A stretch of 52,716 nt of DNA from Escherichia phage BEK12A: sequence record MN158210.1; one strand, written 5' to 3'. How positions within the stretch are numbered: the first letter of the stretch is position 1; every line of letters begins with the position of its first letter. Both the position numbers and the translations under genes were made by a program. This document shows positions 1,020 through 22,173 of the stretch, piece by piece. The notes below the pieces were generated by a model. That model did not search any database. It had not been told where the DNA came from and saw only the letters and a list, made by a program, of their open reading frames with translations.

Positions 1020-2553
1020 AAGAGCAATCAAGGAAATGAGCGAGCACTCATTCGAAAAGATGATCAGAATATGGTTTCCTCTTTTGCAAGGTCAGAAATT
1101 CTTAGGAAACTGGCATTTCAGCTACCTATGTAGCGAAGTTGAAAAAATAATCAAAGGAGAGTCGCAGAATGTGATTTTCAACATTACGCCAGGTAGCGGT
1201 AAGACTGAGATTTTCTCGATCCACATGTCACCCTACGCGTCATTGAAAAGCCGGAAAGTGAGAAACCTTAACCTTTCGTTTAGTGATGGCCTTGTCCAGC
1301 AAAACAGCAACCGGATAAAGGAGATTATTGGTTCTCCTGAGTGGCAAGAGCTATGGCCTGGAAAACTGGCAAAGGCGAGCGCTAAAGATCTGATAGTCAC
1401 CGAAGGCGGCAAGGTTAAATTGCAAGTTAACTCACGTTCTATTGGCGGCCAGGTAACAGGTTTGCGTGGCGGCTATATGGATGATGGTTTTACTGGTATG
1501 CTGGTTCTTGACGATCCAGACAAGCCGGATGACATGCTTTCTAAGGTCAAGCGCGAGGCTATTCACATGCGGTTAAAAAACACAGTGCGATCGCGTCGAA
1601 TGAAAGACACCACGCCAATTGTTATGGTGCAACAGCGACTACACGTTAATGATTCCACCTGGTTCATGCTTAATGGCGGGATGGGTGGTATTGAGTTTAA
1701 AGTTGTGAGCATTCCGGCGCTGGTTACGAAAGAATACCGCGAAACGCTTCCTGATTGGTTAAGGCATGAGTTTGATCGCGATGTTTTGTCCAGCAAGCCA
1801 GTAATGATTGATGGAGTTGCTCATTATTCATTCTGGCCTGCTAAGGAAAGCGCGGAGGAATTACTTGCACTTCGCAATGCTGATCCGTACACGTTCGCTA
1901 GTCAGTACCAGCAACAGCCTGTTGCGCTTGGCGGTAACGTGTTTAAAACAGAGTGGTTTCAGTATTACGGCAGCAGCGAGAAATGCACGCTACCAAAACC
2001 GGATCGCTTTGAATATACATTTATCACGGTTGATACCGCGCAGAAAACAGGTGAGCTTAACGACTACTCCGTGATCTGTTATTGGGGGATGTATAAAGAT
2101 CGCGTTTACTTCATTGATGGTGTTCGCGGAAAATGGGAAGCACCAGACCTTGAGACTAATTTTGTTGCGTTCGTTAATCAGTGCTGGAAGCGCAATAAAG
2201 AATGCGGAACGTTGCGAAGGATTCATGTTGAAGATAAGTCATCTGGTACTGGCTTGATTCAGAGCGCAGCGAAAAAAATCATGATCAAGATCAATCCCGT
2301 TCAGCGAGATAAAGATAAGGTTACGCGAGCAATGGACGCAGCACCAGTAATGCGCGCCGGACGCGTGGCACTTCCAGAATCGCATCCTATGCTGGCTGAG
2401 ATACTCGCTGAAGTTGCGGCGTTTACATTCGATGATAGCCATCCTCATGATGATATTGTTGACACATTGATTGATGCCGTTAATATAGAAATGAACTTGG
2501 CAGACGATCCAGTTGGAAGAATGAAGAAGTTAGCAGGGCTTAGAAAGAGATGA
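985..2553 (+). CDS. terL: terminase large subunit
   Basis: ATG at codon 27 of the 907..2553 ORF preceded by GGAGAGG; Walker A-like NITPGSGKTE; C-terminal nuclease-like acidic residues; size typical. Confidence 0.85.
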   Translation: MLIWEDLTPAHKRAIKEMSEHSFEKMIRIWFPLLQGQKFLGNWHFSYLCSEVEKIIKGESQNVIFNITPGSGKTEIFSIHMSPYASLKSRKVRNLNLSFSDGLVQQNSNRIKEIIGSPEWQELWPGKLAKASAKDLIVTEGGKVKLQVNSRSIGGQVTGLRGGYMDDGFTGMLVLDDPDKPDDMLSKVKREAIHMRLKNTVRSRRMKDTTPIVMVQQRLHVNDSTWFMLNGGMGGIEFKVVSIPALVTKEYRETLPDWLRHEFDRDVLSSKPVMIDGVAHYSFWPAKESAEELLALRNADPYTFASQYQQQPVALGGNVFKTEWFQYYGSSEKCTLPKPDRFEYTFITVDTAQKTGELNDYSVICYWGMYKDRVYFIDGVRGKWEAPDLETNFVAFVNQCWKRNKECGTLRRIHVEDKSSGTGLIQSAAKKIMIKINPVQRDKDKVTRAMDAAPVMRAGRVALPESHPMLAEILAEVAAFTFDDSHPHDDIVDTLIDAVNIEMNLADDPVGRMKKLAGLRKR

Positions 2554-3032
2554 ATTGGCACGATATTTTCTATATAGAAGATGATAAGCTATTCAATAAA
2601 GTTGATAGGGGAGCAAGGGCAATGGCTGGCAAGGAGGCTGGCTGCTTGCATAAGAATAGCGGTTATGTAGTTGTAAGGGTTGACGATAAGCTGCTAAAAG
2701 CGCATAGGATAATTTACGAAATGCGCCACGGTGCAATACCAGAAGGAATGGAGGTTGACCACATAGACCACAATAGATCAAACAACTCTGACAGCAATCA
2801 TAGGCTGGTTACGCATAAGGAAAATACACAAAACGTAACAAGGAGAAAGACAAACAACAGTGGTTGCACTGGTGTTTATTGGTATGAGTCAAGATCAAAA
2901 TGGTGGTCTTTTATTGGAACTGGCAAGGGCAGAAAATCACTTGGCTATTATTCTGACTGGTTTGATGCCGTTTGCGCCAGAAAGAGAGCGGAGTTTGAGC
3001 TTGGTTATCACGAAAACCACGGCAAGAAATAG
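2550..3032 (+). CDS. HNH homing endonuclease
   Basis: HRIIYEMRHGAIPEGMEVDHIDHNRSNNSDSNHRLVTHKENTQN; paralog of 528..1019; overlaps terL stop. Confidence 0.85.
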   Translation: MNWHDIFYIEDDKLFNKVDRGARAMAGKEAGCLHKNSGYVVVRVDDKLLKAHRIIYEMRHGAIPEGMEVDHIDHNRSNNSDSNHRLVTHKENTQNVTRRKTNNSGCTGVYWYESRSKWWSFIGTGKGRKSLGYYSDWFDAVCARKRAEFELGYHENHGKK

Positions 3033-3058
3033 CACGAATCGACAAACCAATATATAAT
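3029..3058 (+). promoter_or_regulatory. variant copy of conserved 20-bp box (ATAGCACGAATCGACAAAC) with downstream TATAAT
   Basis: stop codon TAG of HNH gene embedded in box; same variant as copy near 49296. Confidence 0.35.
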
Positions 3059-3060
3059 CA

Positions 3061-3087
3061 AGGCTGGTAAATCCAGCCTTTTTTTAT
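3061..3087 (+). terminator. rho-independent terminator
   Basis: hairpin AGGCTGGTAAATCCAGCCT followed by TTTTTTTATT, then RBS GGAGG. Confidence 0.6.
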
Positions 3088-3100
3088 TGGAGGAAAGATA

Positions 3101-4381
3101 ATGAGTAAATCACGAATCGTTAAGGCTGACGGCTACAACGAGATCTTTAAAGGCGAGAATTGCAAATCGCGAGTAGAGCAACCATTCTACATGCAGTCAA
3201 TGCCATACAAGACGCTTGCTGACTTTTACGAAAAAGATGGCCTGGCAAAAAGGATTATTGACGTAGTACCAGAGGAAATGGTTTCCCCTGGCTTTACTGT
3301 TGACGGCGTGGCAGACGAGGCAGCATTCCGTTCTTTGTGGGATGAGAAGCGATTGAATGCAAAAATTATTGATGCGCTTTGCTGGTCGCGTTTGTTTGGC
3401 GGATCTGCAATCATTGCTCTTGTTCAGGATGGGCGAGCGCTCAAATCACCTGTAAAGCCTGGAGCTATTCTGGAAGATGTGCGCGTTTACGATCGCTATC
3501 AGATTCGCGTTGAAGCGCGCGAAACTAATCCCCGCAAGGTTCGCTATGGTGAGCCAGTGCTTTACACTGTAACGCCAGGCGGAGACTTGCCGGAATACCA
3601 GGTACACTACACGCGCGTTTGCATTATCGACGGTGAGCGGATAACTAACGCAAAGCGACGCAGCAATGATGGCTGGGGTGAGTCAGTTCTTAACAAGAGA
3701 CTTGTTGAGGCTATTGTTGATTATAACTATTGTGAAACATTAGCGACGCAATTATTGCGGCGTAAGCAGCAGGCAGTATGGAAAGCTAAAGGTCTTGCTG
3801 ACTTGTGTGATGATGAGGAAGGTGTTAGCGCGGCACGACTGAGACTTGCGCAGGTTGACGACGAGGGCGGTGTTGGCAAAGCAATTGGTATTGATGCTGA
3901 GGATGAGGAATATGATGTTCTTAATTCTGACATTAGCGGCGTTGATTCTTTTCTGGAAAAGAAAATGGATCGCATAGTTTCCCTTTCAGGTATTCATGAA
4001 ATAATCCTGAAAAATAAAAACGTTGGCGGCGTTAGCGCAAGCCAAAACACGGCGCTTGAAACATTCTATAAGCTGATTGAACGAAAACGCATTGAGGATT
4101 ACAAGCCTATCCTTGAATTTCTATTGCCGTTCATCATTAGCGAGCAGGAGTGGAGCATTGAGTTTTCACCTTTGAGCGTGCCTAGCGATAAAGATCAGGC
4201 TGAAATTCTGAATAAGAATATCGACTCAATCAGCAAGGCTATTGATGGTCAGTTCCTTGATGTTGAAGAAGCGCGAGACACGTTGCGAGCAATCGCCCCA
4301 AGCGTTAAACTAAAGGACACTAATAAAATCAAGCTGCCGGAGCCAGCGGAGCCGGAGCCAGGCACACAGGGGAATGAGTAA
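3101..4381 (+). CDS. portal protein
   Basis: 426 aa, immediately downstream of terL, acidic C-terminus; synteny with siphovirus head modules. Confidence 0.75.
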   Translation: MSKSRIVKADGYNEIFKGENCKSRVEQPFYMQSMPYKTLADFYEKDGLAKRIIDVVPEEMVSPGFTVDGVADEAAFRSLWDEKRLNAKIIDALCWSRLFGGSAIIALVQDGRALKSPVKPGAILEDVRVYDRYQIRVEARETNPRKVRYGEPVLYTVTPGGDLPEYQVHYTRVCIIDGERITNAKRRSNDGWGESVLNKRLVEAIVDYNYCETLATQLLRRKQQAVWKAKGLADLCDDEEGVSAARLRLAQVDDEGGVGKAIGIDAEDEEYDVLNSDISGVDSFLEKKMDRIVSLSGIHEIILKNKNVGGVSASQNTALETFYKLIERKRIEDYKPILEFLLPFIISEQEWSIEFSPLSVPSDKDQAEILNKNIDSISKAIDGQFLDVEEARDTLRAIAPSVKLKDTNKIKLPEPAEPEPGTQGNE

Positions 4382-17348: not shown

Positions 17349-20300
17349 ATGGCTGAAAATATGATAACTGGCAGTAAGGGCGGAAGCAAAAAGCCATACG
17401 TGCCAAAAGAGATGGAAGATAACCTGATCTCGATAAACAAGATTAAAGTTTTGCTGGCTGTATCTGATGGCGAATGCGATCCAGATTTCACGTTGCGTGA
17501 TCTTTATCTTGATGATGTTCCGGTTATTGCCAGCGATGGCACTGTTAACTATGAGGGGGTAACGGCTGAATATAGACCAGGTACACAGACGCAAGATTAC
17601 ATCCAGGGGTTTACTGACACATCAAGCGAGGTGACAGTTTCGCGAGATATTACAGCAGACAATCCCTATATTATCTCTGTAACAAATAAAAATCTTTCTG
17701 CAATCAGAATCAAGATTCTGATGCCAGTTGGCATAAAACAGGAGGATAACGGCGATCTTGTTGGTGTAAGGGTTCAATATGCCGTAGATATGGCTGTTGA
17801 TGGCGGTTCTTATAACGAGGTTATGAGAGATGTAATTGATGGCAAGACAAGATCAGGATATGACCGCAGCAGAAGGATTGATCTTCCTAAGTTTGATGAG
17901 CGCGTTTTAATCAGGGTCAAGCGACTGACTCCAGACAGCACATCTTCAAAGGTGACTGATAAAATCAAACTGCAAAGTTACGCTGAGGTTGTGGATGCAA
18001 AATTCCGTTATCCTCTGACTGGCCTTGTATTCGTAGAATTTGACAGCGAATTGTTTCCTACGCAAATCCCTAACATTTCTATAAAAAAGAAATGGAAGAT
18101 TATTAATGTGCCAAGCAACTATGATCCAATATCTAGAGAATATCACGGGTCATGGGATGGGACTTTTAAAAAAGCGTGGTCAAATAATCCTGCTTGGGTT
18201 CTTTATGATCTGGTAACTAATCAGCGTTATGGACTTGACCAGCGAGAGTTAGGAATACAGATCGACAAGTGGAGCTTATACGAGGCTGGTGTTTACTGTG
18301 ATCAGAAAGTTCCAGACGGTAAGGGCGGTACAGAGCCTCGCTACCTATGCGATGTGGTGATCCAGAATCAGGTTGAGGCTTATCAGCTAATCCGTGACAT
18401 TTGCTCAATCTTTCGCGGAATGAGCTTTTGGAATGGAGAGAGCTTATCAATCGTAATTGATAAACCGCGCGATCCATCATACGTGTTTACTAATGAAAAC
18501 GTCATCAACGGTGATTTTCAGTACACAGCAGCAAGCGAAAAAAGCATGTACACGCAATGTAATGTGACGTTTGACGACGAACAAAACATGTATCAGCAGG
18601 ACGTAGAGGGGGTTTTTGATACTGAGGCGGCATTACGATTTGGATACAATCCAACAAGCATTACAGCGATCGGGTGTACACGCAGGAGCGAAGCGAATCG
18701 TCGCGGTCGGTGGGTTTTGAAAACAAACCTTAGAAGCACTACTGTAAACTTTGCTACCGGACTAGAGGGGATGATTCCATCCATAGGTGATGTGATTGCT
18801 ATCGCTGATAATTTTCAGAGCAGCAATCTAACGCTAAATCTTTCGGGCCGAGTAATGGAAGTTTCAGGCTTGCAAGTTTTCGTTCCGTTTAAGGTTGATG
18901 CGCGTCCTGGTGATTTTATTATCATCAACAAGCCGGACGGAAAGCCAGTTAAGCGAACGATCTCAAAGGTGAGCGCAGACGGAAAAACCATTGAGTTAAA
19001 TATTGGCTTTGGTTTTGATGTTAAGCCTGATACTGTTTTTGCGATTGACCGTACTGACCTTGCGTTGCAGCAATACGTTGTGACAACTATCAGCAAGGGT
19101 GATGACGAAAACGAGTTTACCTATTCAATCACGGCTGTAGAGTACGATCCGAACAAATACGACGAGATTGATTATGGAGTAAACATTGATGACAGGCCAA
19201 CTTCAATTGTTCAGCCTGACGTGATGGCAGCGCCTGAGAACGTGCAGATCTCTTCTTATTCTCGCGTCGTGCAGGGTGTAAGCGTTGAAACTATGGTTGT
19301 GTCGTGGGAAAAAGTGCCTTATGCATCGCTCTATGAAATGCAGTGGCGTAAAGGTGATGGAAACTGGCTGAATACACCACAGACCGCAAACAAAGAAATT
19401 GAGGTTGAAGGTATTTATTCAGGTAACTACCAAGTAAGGGTGAGATCTGTTTCTGCTTCCGGTTCTACGTCGCCGTGGTCAAAGATTGCAACCGCCACCC
19501 TGACAGGTAAAGTTGGCGAGCCAGGAGCGCCGATTAATCTTACAGCTTCTGATAATGAAGTTTTTGGCATTCGTGTCAAATGGGGTATGCCGGAAGGATC
19601 GGGCGATACGGCTTACATTGAGCTTCACCAATCGCCAGATGGGACGGTGGAAAACTCAAGTTTGCTTACGCTGATCCCGTATCCTCAATATGAGTATTGG
19701 CATAGCACGTTACCAGCGGGTCAAGTTGTATGGTATAGAATCCGTAGCGTTGACAGGATCGGCAACGTTTCCGGCTGGACTGACTTTGTTCGCGGCATGG
19801 CGTCAGATGATGTTGAATCTGTTTTAGGCGACATTCTGGACAAGATTTTTGATACCGAAGCGGGTCAAGAAATCAAAGAGAACGCCATAGACAGTGCAAA
19901 CAAAATCAAAGACCAGGCGCAATCAATCATCCAGAACGCATTGGCAAACGATGCCGATGTGAAGTGGACGCGAGTACAAAACGGAAAGCGTAAGGCTGAA
20001 TATGGTCATGCACTGGAGCTTATTGCTAACGAAACGGAGGCGCGAGTAACTCAAATCGAAGAGTTAAAGGCGTCAATTGATGAAGATATAGTTTCAAGTA
20101 TCAAAACCGTTCAGGAAGCGATTGCCAATGAATCAGAGACGCGAGCTACTCAAGTTCAGCAGCTTGATTCTAAATTTACGAAGGAAATAGACGGCGTAAA
20201 ACGAGATACGGCTGCAAGCATTGGCGAGGTAAGGCAAACCATTACCAATGAATCAGAAGCGCGTGCTCAAGCCGTTCAGCAGCTTGACGCTAAGTTCACG

Positions 20301-20927
20301 AAAGAGATAAACGACCTTGACGGAGTTATCAAAACAGAAGTCGAGGCTAACATCTCAGAAGTGAAACAGGCGATCGCCAATGAGACAGAGGCAAGGGTTC
20401 AGGCTGACCAGGCTTTAACAGCTAAATTCGGAGATGTTGAATCAGCACTAGCCGAAAAACTTGATTCGTGGGCTAACGTTAATTCTGTTGGCGCTAAGTA
20501 CTCTATGAAATTGGGCCTTACTTACAATGGTCAGAAGTACAGCGCAGGAATGATCATGCAGTTGTCGCAATCTTCTCAAGGCTTGATCTCGCAAATCTTG
20601 TTTGATGCTAACAGGTTCGCGATCATGACTAGCTCTACTGGCGGAACGTTTACTTTGCCTTTCGTTGTTGAAAACAACCAGGTTTTCATTAACAGCCTGC
20701 TAGTTAAAAACGGTTCAATTACAAATGCCATGATCGGTAATTATATTCAGTCGAATAACTTTGTTGCCAATCAGCAGGGTTGGAGGCTGGATAAAAACGG
20801 CAGATTTGAGAACTACGGAACTAGAGCGGGAGAAGGAGCTACAAAATTCACTAACGAAGGCTTAAAGGTGAAAGATGCAAATGGACGATTGAGAGTTGAG
20901 ATAGGGAGAATAACCGGAAGTTGGTAA
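17349..20927 (+). CDS. tail tip / central tail fiber protein (lambda gpJ-like host specificity protein)
   Basis: 1192 aa; follows M-L-K-I block; C-terminal coiled-coil repeats (NESEARA..VQQLD.KFTKEI repeated). Confidence 0.8.
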   Translation: MAENMITGSKGGSKKPYVPKEMEDNLISINKIKVLLAVSDGECDPDFTLRDLYLDDVPVIASDGTVNYEGVTAEYRPGTQTQDYIQGFTDTSSEVTVSRDITADNPYIISVTNKNLSAIRIKILMPVGIKQEDNGDLVGVRVQYAVDMAVDGGSYNEVMRDVIDGKTRSGYDRSRRIDLPKFDERVLIRVKRLTPDSTSSKVTDKIKLQSYAEVVDAKFRYPLTGLVFVEFDSELFPTQIPNISIKKKWKIINVPSNYDPISREYHGSWDGTFKKAWSNNPAWVLYDLVTNQRYGLDQRELGIQIDKWSLYEAGVYCDQKVPDGKGGTEPRYLCDVVIQNQVEAYQLIRDICSIFRGMSFWNGESLSIVIDKPRDPSYVFTNENVINGDFQYTAASEKSMYTQCNVTFDDEQNMYQQDVEGVFDTEAALRFGYNPTSITAIGCTRRSEANRRGRWVLKTNLRSTTVNFATGLEGMIPSIGDVIAIADNFQSSNLTLNLSGRVMEVSGLQVFVPFKVDARPGDFIIINKPDGKPVKRTISKVSADGKTIELNIGFGFDVKPDTVFAIDRTDLALQQYVVTTISKGDDENEFTYSITAVEYDPNKYDEIDYGVNIDDRPTSIVQPDVMAAPENVQISSYSRVVQGVSVETMVVSWEKVPYASLYEMQWRKGDGNWLNTPQTANKEIEVEGIYSGNYQVRVRSVSASGSTSPWSKIATATLTGKVGEPGAPINLTASDNEVFGIRVKWGMPEGSGDTAYIELHQSPDGTVENSSLLTLIPYPQYEYWHSTLPAGQVVWYRIRSVDRIGNVSGWTDFVRGMASDDVESVLGDILDKIFDTEAGQEIKENAIDSANKIKDQAQSIIQNALANDADVKWTRVQNGKRKAEYGHALELIANETEARVTQIEELKASIDEDIVSSIKTVQEAIANESETRATQVQQLDSKFTKEIDGVKRDTAASIGEVRQTITNESEARAQAVQQLDAKFTKEINDLDGVIKTEVEANISEVKQAIANETEARVQADQALTAKFGDVESALAEKLDSWANVNSVGAKYSMKLGLTYNGQKYSAGMIMQLSQSSQGLISQILFDANRFAIMTSSTGGTFTLPFVVENNQVFINSLLVKNGSITNAMIGNYIQSNNFVANQQGWRLDKNGRFENYGTRAGEGATKFTNEGLKVKDANGRLRVEIGRITGSW

Positions 20928-20930
20928 AAA

Positions 20931-20952
20931 AAGGGGGCATAGCCCCCTTTAA
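20931..20952. terminator. terminator between convergent genes
   Basis: AAGGGGGCATAGCCCCCTT flanked by A-run and T-run. Confidence 0.6.
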
Positions 20953-20954
20953 TT

Positions 20955-21569
20955 TTAATCATAGTGTGATGAATTTATAACCAAAACAGATGAAGCCGTG
21001 TAAATACCAACAGGACCAGAAGTTTGTGCAACCTGCCTAGATAAAGAATATACCCCGTTGCCATACGCGGCAGCTTGAGACTCAAATATCATGAATCCAC
21101 CTAAAGACGGATTACGCACAGAGTTTAAAGCTGTTAGTGACGGCATGATGGCGCAAGGGTATCCCAAGTTAACGTCAAAAGTGATCCCGCTTACAGATAC
21201 AAGTTTTGCATCTAAAGGCTTCATCTTTCCATGATAAACCATCTCACCATTAGCATTATAAAAAGCTATTCCGTGACTACCAGGAGGAGTAACCATATTG
21301 CTAAAAGCATAAACAAATACCTCACCTTGATTGTCTGACTTTTCTATCTTTATTGCGTGCTTCCCACCATTATTAAATTGAGTAAATGCTATGTATGATT
21401 TTGATGTTAACCTTACAAAAAAGAAGCACGGTATATTTATTGGTATAGAAGTATTAAAAACGGTTCCTGTTTTTGCTGATATTTTACCTTTATCTATAAG
21501 GTTAACAGGAGTGAAATCTGGACTTAACCACAATGATCCGTCTGGTTTTTTTATGCTCATCCCGTACAT
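20955..21569 (-). CDS. hypothetical protein, candidate receptor-binding protein
   Basis: about 204 aa (ORF-track start is TTG; first ATG at codon 5); last gene of lipoprotein-led leftward operon downstream of J. Confidence 0.4.
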   Translation of the reverse strand: MYGMSIKKPDGSLWLSPDFTPVNLIDKGKISAKTGTVFNTSIPINIPCFFFVRLTSKSYIAFTQFNNGGKHAIKIEKSDNQGEVFVYAFSNMVTPPGSHGIAFYNANGEMVYHGKMKPLDAKLVSVSGITFDVNLGYPCAIMPSLTALNSVRNPSLGGFMIFESQAAAYGNGVYSLSRQVAQTSGPVGIYTASSVLVINSSHYD

Positions 21570-21571
21570 TA

Positions 21572-21850
21572 TTACCCCCAAAAAGTATATATATATCTTG
21601 AGTCAGATCCAGAAAGTCCGCTCCATGTAACAGTATCACCGCTTACACCTAAACTTGGAGCGCCTGGATCGCCTCCTCGCCACGAATTCATTCCAACATA
21701 TATTGCTTTCAAAGACTTACCTGGAGGCCTGTTTGAGTAGGTCTTACTGCCGGATGATTGAGTAAATTTATCCAAGAAAAAAACTGGAGTTAAAAGGCCA
21801 GTAACATTTCTACCTTGCTCATCATATATTGCATACCCATATTCAGCCAT
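21572..21850 (-). CDS. hypothetical Gly/Ser-rich protein
   Basis: 92 aa, RBS GAGGTG; 3' end contains (TA)5 tract; coupled to lipoprotein gene stop. Confidence 0.4.
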   Translation of the reverse strand: MAEYGYAIYDEQGRNVTGLLTPVFFLDKFTQSSGSKTYSNRPPGKSLKAIYVGMNSWRGGDPGAPSLGVSGDTVTWSGLSGSDSRYIYTFWG

Positions 21851-22118
21851 TTTTGCACCTCAAATCAATGAATTTTCTTTCATCTTGCCAACGGTTGATA
21901 AATTTAACTTCTTTATTGTCAACGCTCAACCTGTATTGCTTTTGGCTGAATCTGTTTTCGCGGACCGCATTAATTTTAACTTCATGGAATCCGTTAACAG
22001 GGAATGTTTTAACGTTAAATTTTGCCGTGCAATCGATCTCCTTGAAGTTGCCAGTAGGCGAAGAAGAACATCCGGTCAGGGCGGCTACGGTGGCGATAAC
22101 TGCGATTAATTTTTTCAT
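21843..22118 (-). CDS. lipoprotein, candidate superinfection-exclusion (Cor/Llp-like) protein
   Basis: MKKLIAVIATVAALTGCSSS signal peptide with lipobox; RBS AAGGAG; first gene of leftward operon next to tail tip gene. Confidence 0.5.
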   Translation of the reverse strand: MKKLIAVIATVAALTGCSSSPTGNFKEIDCTAKFNVKTFPVNGFHEVKINAVRENRFSQKQYRLSVDNKEVKFINRWQDERKFIDLRCKNG

Positions 22119-22173
22119 CTTCAATACTCCTTAGTTGTTGTTGGCTGTAACTATACACGATCCGGCAAGCCGA

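What the first reader, a model, noticed from the sequence alone, without database searches (positions are those of the whole stretch)
21560..21606. (TA)5 tract at the junction of two adjacent leftward ORFs: a 2-nt slip would fuse them
The 92-aa ORF (21572..21850) ends just after a TATATATATA run, and the downstream 204-aa ORF is in the frame reached by deleting one TA unit; that frame is already open across the junction (the ORF track extends it to a TTG at 21581). This is therefore either a translationally coupled gene pair, a frameshift-split gene, or a slipped-strand switch producing short and fused forms of a candidate receptor-binding protein.
Basis: seen in the sequence. Interest (0 to 1): 0.6.

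Follow-up and report, generated by a model that had tools for sequence, protein, structure and literature searches.

The report
Coupled gene boundary, not a switch
The TA repeat is real, but it is just the codons for a conserved Tyr-Ile-Tyr at the end of a small phage tail gene that sits directly before, and is translated together with, the gene for the phage's receptor-binding protein, so it is an ordinary gene boundary and not a genetic switch.

Summary
The window is Escherichia phage BEK26, a T1-like Warwickvirus. In detail: (TA)5 lies at 21586-21595. It is 11 nt before the TAA of a 92-aa gene, whose stop is followed by TA and then the ATG of a 204-aa gene. Deleting one TA unit would give a 297-aa fusion.

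The switch reading is not supported.
- The tract encodes Tyr-Ile-Tyr of a conserved C-terminal motif (YIYTF/YWG). It is broken by other codons (ATT, TTT) in more distant orthologs.
- Its length is unchanged in all 60 listed phage records and in four metagenome or viral contigs.
- Orthologs in six phage lineages are always two genes. The gaps are 2, 1, 5 or -1 nt, so the frame relation is not conserved.
- The downstream gene has its own ATG, a conserved MYG N-terminus, and a Shine-Dalgarno (GGGGGU) made by the upstream Trp-Gly codons.

The parts
21586..21595 (-). (TA)5 tract. In the 92-aa gene's frame it reads TAT-ATA-TAT-A(CT), that is Tyr86-Ile87-Tyr88-Thr89.
   Evidence: It encodes the conserved motif YIYT(F/Y)WG.
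21572..21850 (-). 92-aa gene (PHROG 557, named 'outer membrane protein' in databases). I infer it is the small N-terminal or tail-proximal module of a split receptor-binding protein.
   Evidence: PHROG hit E 6e-21. Annotated as a separate CDS, QGH77565.1. pN/pS 0.07 against FritzSarasin. hhalign to residues 15-79 of the ~320-aa fused homologs gives probability 93.8%, E 1.7e-7.
21574..21579 (-). GGGGGU. This is the Trp-Gly codons plus the first base of the stop, and it doubles as the Shine-Dalgarno for the downstream gene, 4 nt before the ATG.
   Evidence: Read from the sequence. TGGGG(G/A) before the stop is conserved in BubbaBully, PTXU06, VT2-Sakai and JenP2. Pairing with the 16S 3' end ACCUCC is established knowledge, not tested here.
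21567..21574 (-). Stop-start junction TAA-TA-ATG, with a 2-nt gap.
20955..21569 (-). 204-aa gene (PHROG 425, named 'membrane associated protein' in databases). I infer it is the receptor-binding module, probably for BtuB.
21843..22124 (-). Cor-like lipoprotein gene with lipobox LTGC, the likely superinfection-exclusion factor. Its stop overlaps the 92-aa gene's start by 8 nt (ATGGCTGA).
   Evidence: PHROG 1119 (Cor) E 6e-8 and a weak LPAM_1 hit. GenBank starts this CDS two codons later.
20923..20950 (.). GC-rich hairpin AAAGGGGGC-TAT-GCCCCCTTT, followed by a T-run on the minus strand. It is a shared terminator between the convergent J gene and the 204-aa gene.
   Evidence: The scan found the hairpin at 20930-20950. 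The minus-strand T-run is read.
17349..20927 (+). GpJ-like tail tip protein (1192 aa), convergent with the three-gene locus.
   Evidence: Annotated as tail fiber / J-like in BEK26 and its relatives.

Best explanation
The tract lies at an ordinary, translationally coupled boundary between two genes of the phage's receptor-binding locus. Three genes are transcribed leftward as one unit, convergent with gpJ and ending at a shared terminator: a Cor-like lipoprotein, the 92-aa gene and the 204-aa gene. Ribosomes finishing the 92-aa gene stop at TAA. A new initiation takes place 2 nt later at the ATG, using the GGGGGU that the last two sense codons (Trp-Gly) provide as a Shine-Dalgarno. The (TA)5 run is simply Tyr-Ile-Tyr (TAT ATA TAT) in the last beta-strand-like motif (YIYTFWG) of the 92-aa protein, written in A/T-ending codons. 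The AU-rich stretch just 5' of the Shine-Dalgarno may additionally favour initiation, but that is inference. Functionally, the 204-aa protein is the receptor-binding module, probably for BtuB. The 92-aa protein is most likely its partner, corresponding to the N-terminal part of single-chain relatives. The pair therefore looks like an anciently split receptor-binding protein made in roughly equal amounts by coupling. What is shown: the anatomy, conservation as two genes, tract invariance, purifying selection, the fold match and the existence of fused homologs. What is inferred: actual coupling, physical association of the two proteins, BtuB binding and the virion location.
For: Anatomy:
- The junction TAA-TA-ATG with GGGGG 5 nt upstream is read.
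- The cor-like stop overlaps the 92-aa start by 8 nt.
- No stable RNA structure forms at the junction (z = +1.38).

Orthologs are two genes:
- They are annotated or readable as two genes in Warwickvirus, Hanrivervirus, Henuseptimavirus, Dhillonvirus, Nonagvirus, Stx-converting Sepvirinae and SSU5.
- Gaps are 2, 1, 5 or -1 nt and the downstream N-terminus MYG is conserved.
- All eight 90%-cluster homologs of the small protein are 91-93 aa.
- Most of the 80 representatives of the large protein are 200-235 aa and match from residue 1-5.
- The literature describes the same two genes next to cor in T1, HK022, N15, ES18 and phi80 (PMC13164509).

The tract is a coding by-product:
- The motif YIYT(F/Y)WG is conserved, while the codons vary: ATA or ATT for Ile, TAT or TTT at the first position.

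No length variants:
- All 60 listed phage records align the 60-nt junction to exactly 60 nt in one piece.
- Two IMG/VR and two metagenome contigs carry (TA)5, and a pattern allowing 4-18 nt found no other length.

Both genes are functional:
- pN/pS is 0.07 and 0.15 at pS of about 0.5.

Receptor-binding role:
- The locus is the 'bona fide RBP locus' downstream of gpJ (PMC8594841).
- FritzSarasin, whose locus is 86.5% identical in DNA, uses BtuB.

Split-protein reading:
- Six representatives of 315-325 aa are collinear fusions. hhalign gives 93.8% probability for the N-terminal part and 99.6% for the C-terminal part.
- One of these genes lies directly after a GpJ-like gene.
- The fused model matches 9rpt_C over 205 residues, against 149 for the 204-aa protein alone.
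- Oekolampad has one 321-aa gene in the slot that the two genes occupy here.
Confidence: 0.85

Rival explanations
1. Slipped-strand (phase-variable) switch. Replication slippage in (TA)5 deletes one unit at a useful frequency. This fuses the two genes into a 297-aa single-chain receptor-binding protein, so a lysate contains two tail-tip types.
For: A -2 slip does give an open 297-aa fusion. The tract is the longest dinucleotide repeat in the genome and is unexpected by composition. Single-chain versions of this architecture exist in nature, so a fusion could plausibly fold.
Against: Tract length is identical in all 60 listed phage records (roughly 48 distinct isolates by my count of duplicate records) and in four contigs. 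In BubbaBully and PTXU06 the same deletion does not fuse the genes, because the gap is 1 nt and a gain of one unit would be needed. The repeat is interrupted in PTXU06, VT2-Sakai and JenP2 while the peptide is kept. Five units is short compared with known dinucleotide contingency tracts, for example about 9-11 TA units in the Haemophilus hif promoter (my own knowledge, not tested). A +2 slip gives only a truncated 116-aa product.
Confidence: 0.03
2. Programmed -1 ribosomal frameshift, as in lambda G/GT. The downstream frame is also the -1 frame, so a fraction of ribosomes could slip near the end of the 92-aa gene (for example on G GGG before the stop) and make a fusion alongside the two separate proteins.
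For: The downstream ORF is in the -1 frame, and that frame is open for 33 nt before the stop. The run GGGGG followed by a stop codon could in principle allow P-site slippage; this is inference.
Against: I read no X XXY YYZ heptamer in the zero frame of the overlap. The downstream gene has its own ATG, Shine-Dalgarno and conserved MYG N-terminus. The frame relation is +1 in BubbaBully and PTXU06. No stimulatory RNA structure is present, since the junction folds less stably than shuffles (z +1.38).
Confidence: 0.02
3. Recently frameshift-split (degraded) gene. BEK26 or its lineage carries a broken version of a single ~300-aa gene.
For: Single-chain homologs of 315-325 aa exist, and Oekolampad has one 321-aa gene in the same slot.
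Against: The split is shared by every relative down to about 25% identity in at least six phage lineages. Both parts are under purifying selection. The downstream part keeps a conserved start and ribosome-binding site. The fused forms share at most about 31% identity and carry an extra linker. An ancient fission or fusion event is likely; a recent lesion is not.
Confidence: 0.03
4. The two proteins are not virion receptor-binding parts. They are host-membrane proteins that assist Cor-type superinfection exclusion, as the database names and the KanT1 paper suggest. The boundary is still an ordinary coupled one.
For: [quoted passage not shown] The genes are consistently linked to a Cor-like lipoprotein. 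The KanT1 authors propose a role in exclusion.
Confidence: 0.1

Closest known systems
Translationally coupled adjacent genes in phage and bacterial operons (stop and start within a few nucleotides, Shine-Dalgarno inside the upstream gene)
   Same: The junction is TAA-TA-ATG. GGGGGU lies 4 nt before the ATG, inside the upstream coding sequence. The next boundary upstream overlaps by 8 nt. SSU5 has the classic TAATG overlap.
   Different: Nothing unusual. The one special point is that the Shine-Dalgarno is made of conserved Trp-Gly codons of the upstream protein.
The cor cassette / 'bona fide RBP locus' next to gpJ in T1-like and related siphophages (T1, phi80, N15, HK022, ES18; BASEL Drexlerviridae, Dhillonvirus, Queuovirinae)
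   Same: The protein families are the same (PHROG 557 and 425 plus a Cor-like lipoprotein). The position beside gpJ is the same, and so is the two-gene organisation.
   Different: The gene order here is lipoprotein, then the small gene, then the large gene, convergent with J. In T1 and SSU5 the lipoprotein comes last. The probable receptor is BtuB rather than FhuA.
Receptor-binding protein of phage Oekolampad (Bas18), PDB 9rpt chain C, bound to LptDE
   Different: It is one 321-aa chain instead of 92 + 204 aa. No sequence similarity is detectable. The receptor is different (LptD).
Simple-sequence contingency loci (slipped-strand phase variation in Haemophilus and Neisseria; phase-variable phage tail-fibre systems)
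   Same: A short tandem repeat lies inside a coding region of a host-recognition gene, and a unit change would alter the product.
   Different: The tract has only five units. It shows no length polymorphism in 60 listed records. The repeat is not conserved as such, and the effect of a slip differs between orthologs.
Lambda G/GT-type programmed -1 frameshift in tail genes
   Same: Two adjacent tail-region ORFs, with the second in the -1 frame of the first.
   Different: There is no slippery heptamer and no stimulatory structure. The second ORF has its own start, and the frame relation is not conserved.

Membership tests
Translationally coupled gene pair | The upstream stop codon lies within a few nucleotides of the downstream start codon | tested here: met
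   The junction is TAA-TA-ATG (2-nt gap) in BEK26. Gaps are 1, 2, 5 or -1 nt in orthologs.
Translationally coupled gene pair | A Shine-Dalgarno for the downstream gene lies inside the upstream coding sequence at the proper spacing | tested here: met
   GGGGGU lies 4 nt before the ATG. TGGGG(G/A) is conserved in five lineages.
Translationally coupled gene pair | Downstream translation depends on translation of the upstream gene | not testable with these tools
   This needs reporter fusions with an upstream premature stop.
Slipped-strand phase-variable (contingency) locus | A simple-sequence repeat is placed so that a unit change alters the reading frame or expression | tested here: met
   (TA)5 lies 11 nt before the stop. 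A loss of one unit gives a 297-aa fusion.
Slipped-strand phase-variable (contingency) locus | Repeat number varies among isolates or relatives | tested here: not met
   All 60 listed phage records show no length change in the 60-nt junction. All four contigs have (TA)5. Scans allowing 4-18 nt found no other length.
Slipped-strand phase-variable (contingency) locus | The repeat is conserved as a repeat, beyond what the protein sequence requires | tested here: not met
   The sequence is TTT ATA TAT in PTXU06 and TAT ATT TAT in VT2-Sakai and JenP2, with the peptide motif kept.
Slipped-strand phase-variable (contingency) locus | Length heterogeneity within a single population | not testable with these tools
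   This needs raw reads or amplicon sequencing of lysates.
Programmed -1 ribosomal frameshift (G/GT type) | A slippery heptamer X XXY YYZ in the zero frame within the overlap | tested here: not met
   The zero frame reads TCA AGA TAT ATA TAT ACT TTT TGG GGG TAA, and I found no such heptamer in it.
Programmed -1 ribosomal frameshift (G/GT type) | The frame relation is conserved among homologs, and the downstream ORF lacks its own initiation signals | tested here: not met
   The relation is +1 in BubbaBully and PTXU06. The downstream ORF has an ATG, a Shine-Dalgarno and a conserved MYG.
Programmed -1 ribosomal frameshift (G/GT type) | A downstream stimulatory RNA structure | tested here: not met
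   The minimum free energy is -16.6 kcal/mol against -21.0 for shuffles, z +1.38.
cor cassette / RBP locus beside gpJ (PHROG 557 + PHROG 425 + lipoprotein) | Sequence membership of both proteins in the two families | tested here: met
   E 6.2e-21 for phrog_557 and 2e-50 for phrog_425.
cor cassette / RBP locus beside gpJ (PHROG 557 + PHROG 425 + lipoprotein) | Position directly beside the gpJ homolog, with a small lipoprotein gene adjacent | tested here: met
   J lies at 17349-20927 (+). The locus lies at 20955-22124 (-). The lipobox is LTGC, and the Cor PHROG hit is E 6e-8.
cor cassette / RBP locus beside gpJ (PHROG 557 + PHROG 425 + lipoprotein) | The protein binds the terminal receptor (BtuB) and is part of the virion | not testable with these tools
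   This is inferred from FritzSarasin's BtuB dependence and the fold match to the Oekolampad receptor-binding protein.
Oekolampad-type siphophage receptor-binding protein fold | Structural similarity to the solved receptor-binding protein well above background | tested here: met
Oekolampad-type siphophage receptor-binding protein fold | Detectable sequence homology | tested here: not met
   Profile searches of the PDB and hhalign against bas18_0025 found nothing.

The most novel reading that the evidence does not exclude
The split point of a two-chain receptor-binding protein coincides with the genome's only (TA)5 tract. Rare -2 slippage there could regenerate a single-chain, Oekolampad-like 297-aa protein in a minority of progeny. 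That would give a lysate a low-frequency second tail-tip form with altered receptor binding or stability, a bet-hedging device built on a gene fission.
Probability: 0.03. Interest if true: 0.6.

Novelty: already known. Interest (0 to 1): 0.15.

Why it matters
The feature as flagged has little significance. It removes a false lead, because the repeat is a coding by-product at a normal coupled gene boundary.

The follow-up adds modest value for phage receptor biology:
- The 'membrane associated protein' of the widespread cor cassette has the fold of a solved receptor-binding protein. This argues for a role in host recognition rather than in exclusion.
- The small upstream gene appears to be the detached N-terminal module of that protein.
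- If this holds, the BtuB/FhuA-type and LptD-type proteins of small siphophages, which a recent preprint treats as unrelated families, belong to one structural class. Engineering of receptor specificity in T1-like phages should then move both genes together.

Tried and rejected
- Pfam gave nothing for either protein.
- Sequence searches of the PDB gave nothing. This covers the single proteins and the family profiles A1 and A7.
- The search for related loci in IMG/VR found only two relatives.
- My first loose flank pattern gave 24 chance hits and only those same two true loci. A tighter pattern found two metagenome contigs and none in GTDB genomes.
- BLASTP of the two proteins against each other (E 0.28) and hhalign of the two families against each other (probability 2.4%) were not significant. 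A shared N-terminal motif is therefore only a weak hint: 1 of 2000 shuffles reached the HMM score.
- hhalign of the 92-aa family and of the fused family against the Oekolampad protein found nothing.
- MAFFT placed the 92-aa family on the wrong domain when mixed with the fused and 204-aa proteins. I left those rows out of the alignment used to model the fused homolog.
- I considered a -1 frameshift on GGGGG before the stop. I rejected it for lack of a heptamer, of a structure and of a conserved frame relation.

Full report
**Identity of the window.** The 1.3-kb region around the finding is 100% identical to Escherichia phage BEK26 (MN158216.1, 52,716 bp; Drexlerviridae, Tempevirinae, Warwickvirus). 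It is 86-99% identical to about 70 other T1-like coliphages. GenBank annotates the two ORFs as separate hypothetical proteins.

**Checking the observation.** On the minus strand the sequence reads ...TCA AGA TAT ATA TAT ACT TTT TGG GGG TAA TA ATG TAC GGG....
- (TA)5 occupies 21595..21586.
- The 92-aa ORF runs from 21850 and stops at 21574-21572.
- The 204-aa ORF starts at 21569.
- The downstream frame is +2 (equivalently -1) relative to the upstream one and is open from 21602.
- Simulated loss of one TA unit gives a 297-aa fusion. Gain of one unit gives a 116-aa product.
- The decamer occurs once in the window against 0.01 expected. It is the longest dinucleotide repeat in the genome.

**What the tract encodes.** In the 92-aa protein's frame the tract is Tyr-Ile-Tyr, inside a C-terminal motif YIYT(F/Y)WG. 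That motif is nearly invariant in 13 family members. I aligned the junctions of seven diverse orthologs:
- Drexlerviridae and the Henuseptimavirus BubbaBully keep TAT ATA TAT.
- The Dhillonvirus PTXU06 has TTT ATA TAT (Phe).
- VT2-Sakai and JenP2 have TAT ATT TAT.

So the peptide is conserved and the repeat is not. Given Tyr-Ile-Tyr, BEK26's own codon usage yields TAT-ATA-TAT about 5% of the time. That is uncommon but not remarkable.

**Are orthologs one gene or two?** Every relative with recognisable close or middle-distance similarity has two genes. This covers Warwickvirus and Hanrivervirus records, BubbaBully, PTXU06, the Stx-converting podovirus VT2-Sakai (orf63/orf64), the Nonagvirus JenP2 and Salmonella phage SSU5.
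- Gaps between stop and start are 2, 1, 1, 5, 2 and -1 nt. The frame relation is therefore +2 in some orthologs and +1 in BubbaBully and PTXU06.
- In those two phages the same TA deletion would not fuse the genes.
- The downstream protein always begins MYG.
- The upstream gene always ends ...TGG GG(G/A) stop, except in SSU5, which has a TAATG overlap instead.
- The Trp-Gly codons supply GGGGGU, which can pair with ACCUCC of the 16S rRNA, 4 nt before the ATG.
- All eight 90%-identity clusters found for the small protein are 91-93 aa long.
- A recent paper describes the same two genes beside cor in T1, HK022, N15, ES18 and phi80 (PMC13164509).

**Tract length in populations.**
- A 60-nt query centred on the junction matched 81 phage records. 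In all 60 records listed it aligned positions 1-60 to exactly 60 nt in a single piece, so none has a length change. By my count of RefSeq and GenBank duplicates, these are roughly 48 distinct isolates.
- A flank pattern allowing 4-18 nt in place of the tract found only (TA)5, in two IMG/VR contigs and two metagenome contigs. It found nothing in GTDB genomes.

Consensus assemblies cannot show minority variants within one lysate, so that test remains open.

**Other mechanisms.**
- A programmed -1 frameshift is geometrically possible, but I found no X XXY YYZ heptamer in the zero frame.
- The junction RNA folds less stably than shuffled controls (z +1.38).
- The frame relation is not conserved.
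- A recent gene-breaking frameshift is excluded. Comparing BEK26 with FritzSarasin, pN/pS is 0.07 for the 92-aa gene and 0.15 for the 204-aa gene at pS of about 0.5.

**What the genes are.**
- PHROGs places the proteins in families 557 and 425 (E 6e-21 and 2e-50). The gene just upstream is a Cor-like lipoprotein (E 6e-8; lipobox LTGC).
- The three genes abut or overlap. They are convergent with the 1192-aa GpJ-like tail tip gene and end at a shared hairpin terminator.
- This is the 'bona fide RBP locus' of small siphophages, whose alleles track receptor use (PMC8594841; bioRxiv 10.64898/2026.04.02.716166).
- FritzSarasin (Bas04) has a locus 86.5% identical in DNA and uses BtuB. BtuB is therefore the probable receptor of BEK26.
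- An AlphaFold2 model of the 204-aa protein, built on 54 sequences, is all-beta with pLDDT 95.4.

**Single-chain relatives.**
- An exhaustive HMMER search with the 204-aa protein found 80 representatives. Most are 200-235 aa and match from residue 1-5.
- Six are 315-325 aa and match only from residue 94-114 onward.
- Profile comparison shows these six are collinear fusions. The 92-aa family matches their residues 15-79 (probability 93.8%, E 1.7e-7). The 204-aa family matches residues 109-315 (probability 99.6%, E 1e-24).
- One of them lies directly after a 2162-aa GpJ-like gene in a chromosomal prophage, with its start overlapping the J stop. Others sit next to tail-fibre genes.
- In Oekolampad, a single 321-aa gene preceded by the exclusion lipoprotein gene occupies exactly the slot that the 92-aa and 204-aa genes occupy in BEK26.
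- No sequence similarity to the Oekolampad protein is detectable.

I conclude that the pair is best seen as an anciently split receptor-binding protein. Translational coupling would be a natural way to keep the two parts in step. This part is inference.

**Verdict.** The feature is real, but it is an ordinary, already annotated, translationally coupled gene boundary within a known locus type. The TA run is a by-product of conserved codons. The slip-switch, ribosomal-frameshift and broken-gene readings each fail tests run here. I give the coupled-pair reading about 0.85 and the switch about 0.03.

Noticed in passing
window 20955-21850 (-); L045 8001-8963; L047 6655-7620: The 92-aa and 204-aa proteins together correspond to single-chain proteins of about 320 aa. 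Six distant prophage homologs are collinear fusions. The solved Oekolampad LptD-binding protein (321 aa) occupies the same genomic slot and shares the fold. This suggests that the BtuB/FhuA-type and LptD-type receptor-binding proteins of small siphophages are one structural class, although a 2026 preprint calls them unrelated families.
   Followed up: partly
window 21802-21850 (-) and 21527-21569 (-): The N-termini of the two proteins resemble each other: YGYAIYDEQGRNV...TPVFFLDK against YGMSIKKPDGSLW...TPVNLIDK. A similar stretch recurs at residues 99-111 of the 204-aa protein (HGIAFYNANGEMV), and by eye at the N-terminus of the Oekolampad protein. An HMM of the 204-aa family's N-terminus scores the 92-aa proteins at 4-12 bits, and 1 of 2000 shuffles reaches the score. 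hhalign and BLASTP are not significant. It may be a shared docking hairpin or it may be chance.
   Followed up: partly
window 21843-21850 (-): The Cor-like lipoprotein gene's stop overlaps the start of the 92-aa gene by 8 nt (ATGGCTGA). All three genes of the locus are therefore packed for coupled translation.
   Followed up: yes
window 20923-20950: A perfect GC-rich hairpin sits between the convergent gpJ gene and the 204-aa gene, with T-runs on both sides. It is probably a bidirectional terminator. It starts 3 nt after the J stop and 5 nt after the stop of the 204-aa gene.
   Followed up: partly
L003 (OR896831.1 BubbaBully) 1501-2115; L005 (VT2-Sakai) 2217-2495; L007 (SSU5) 2501-3109: There are annotation slips in relatives. 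BubbaBully lacks the 204-aa CDS and has two short opposite-strand ORFs called in its place. VT2-Sakai orf63 is started 51 nt too late. SSU5_024 is started 42 nt too late, which misses the conserved MYG start that overlaps the upstream stop.
   Followed up: partly
phage records MG065657.1 and four others: Five records named 'Campylobacter phage', with C. jejuni given as host, carry this T1-like coliphage locus. The 204-aa protein is 62% identical and the genome is about 50 kb. The host assignment looks doubtful.
   Followed up: no
L010 (BEK7, filed as Hanrivervirus) against the window (Warwickvirus): The locus is 99.1% identical between phages filed under different genera. This fits either horizontal exchange of the receptor-binding module, as reported for these phages, or inconsistent taxonomy of the BEK records.
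   Followed up: no
L005 (VT2-Sakai) 2217-3118: Homologs of both genes (46% identity for the large one) lie in short-tailed Stx-converting phages between the tail fibre gene and lom, and no lipoprotein gene is annotated beside them. The module is therefore not restricted to siphophages with a GpJ tip.
   Followed up: no
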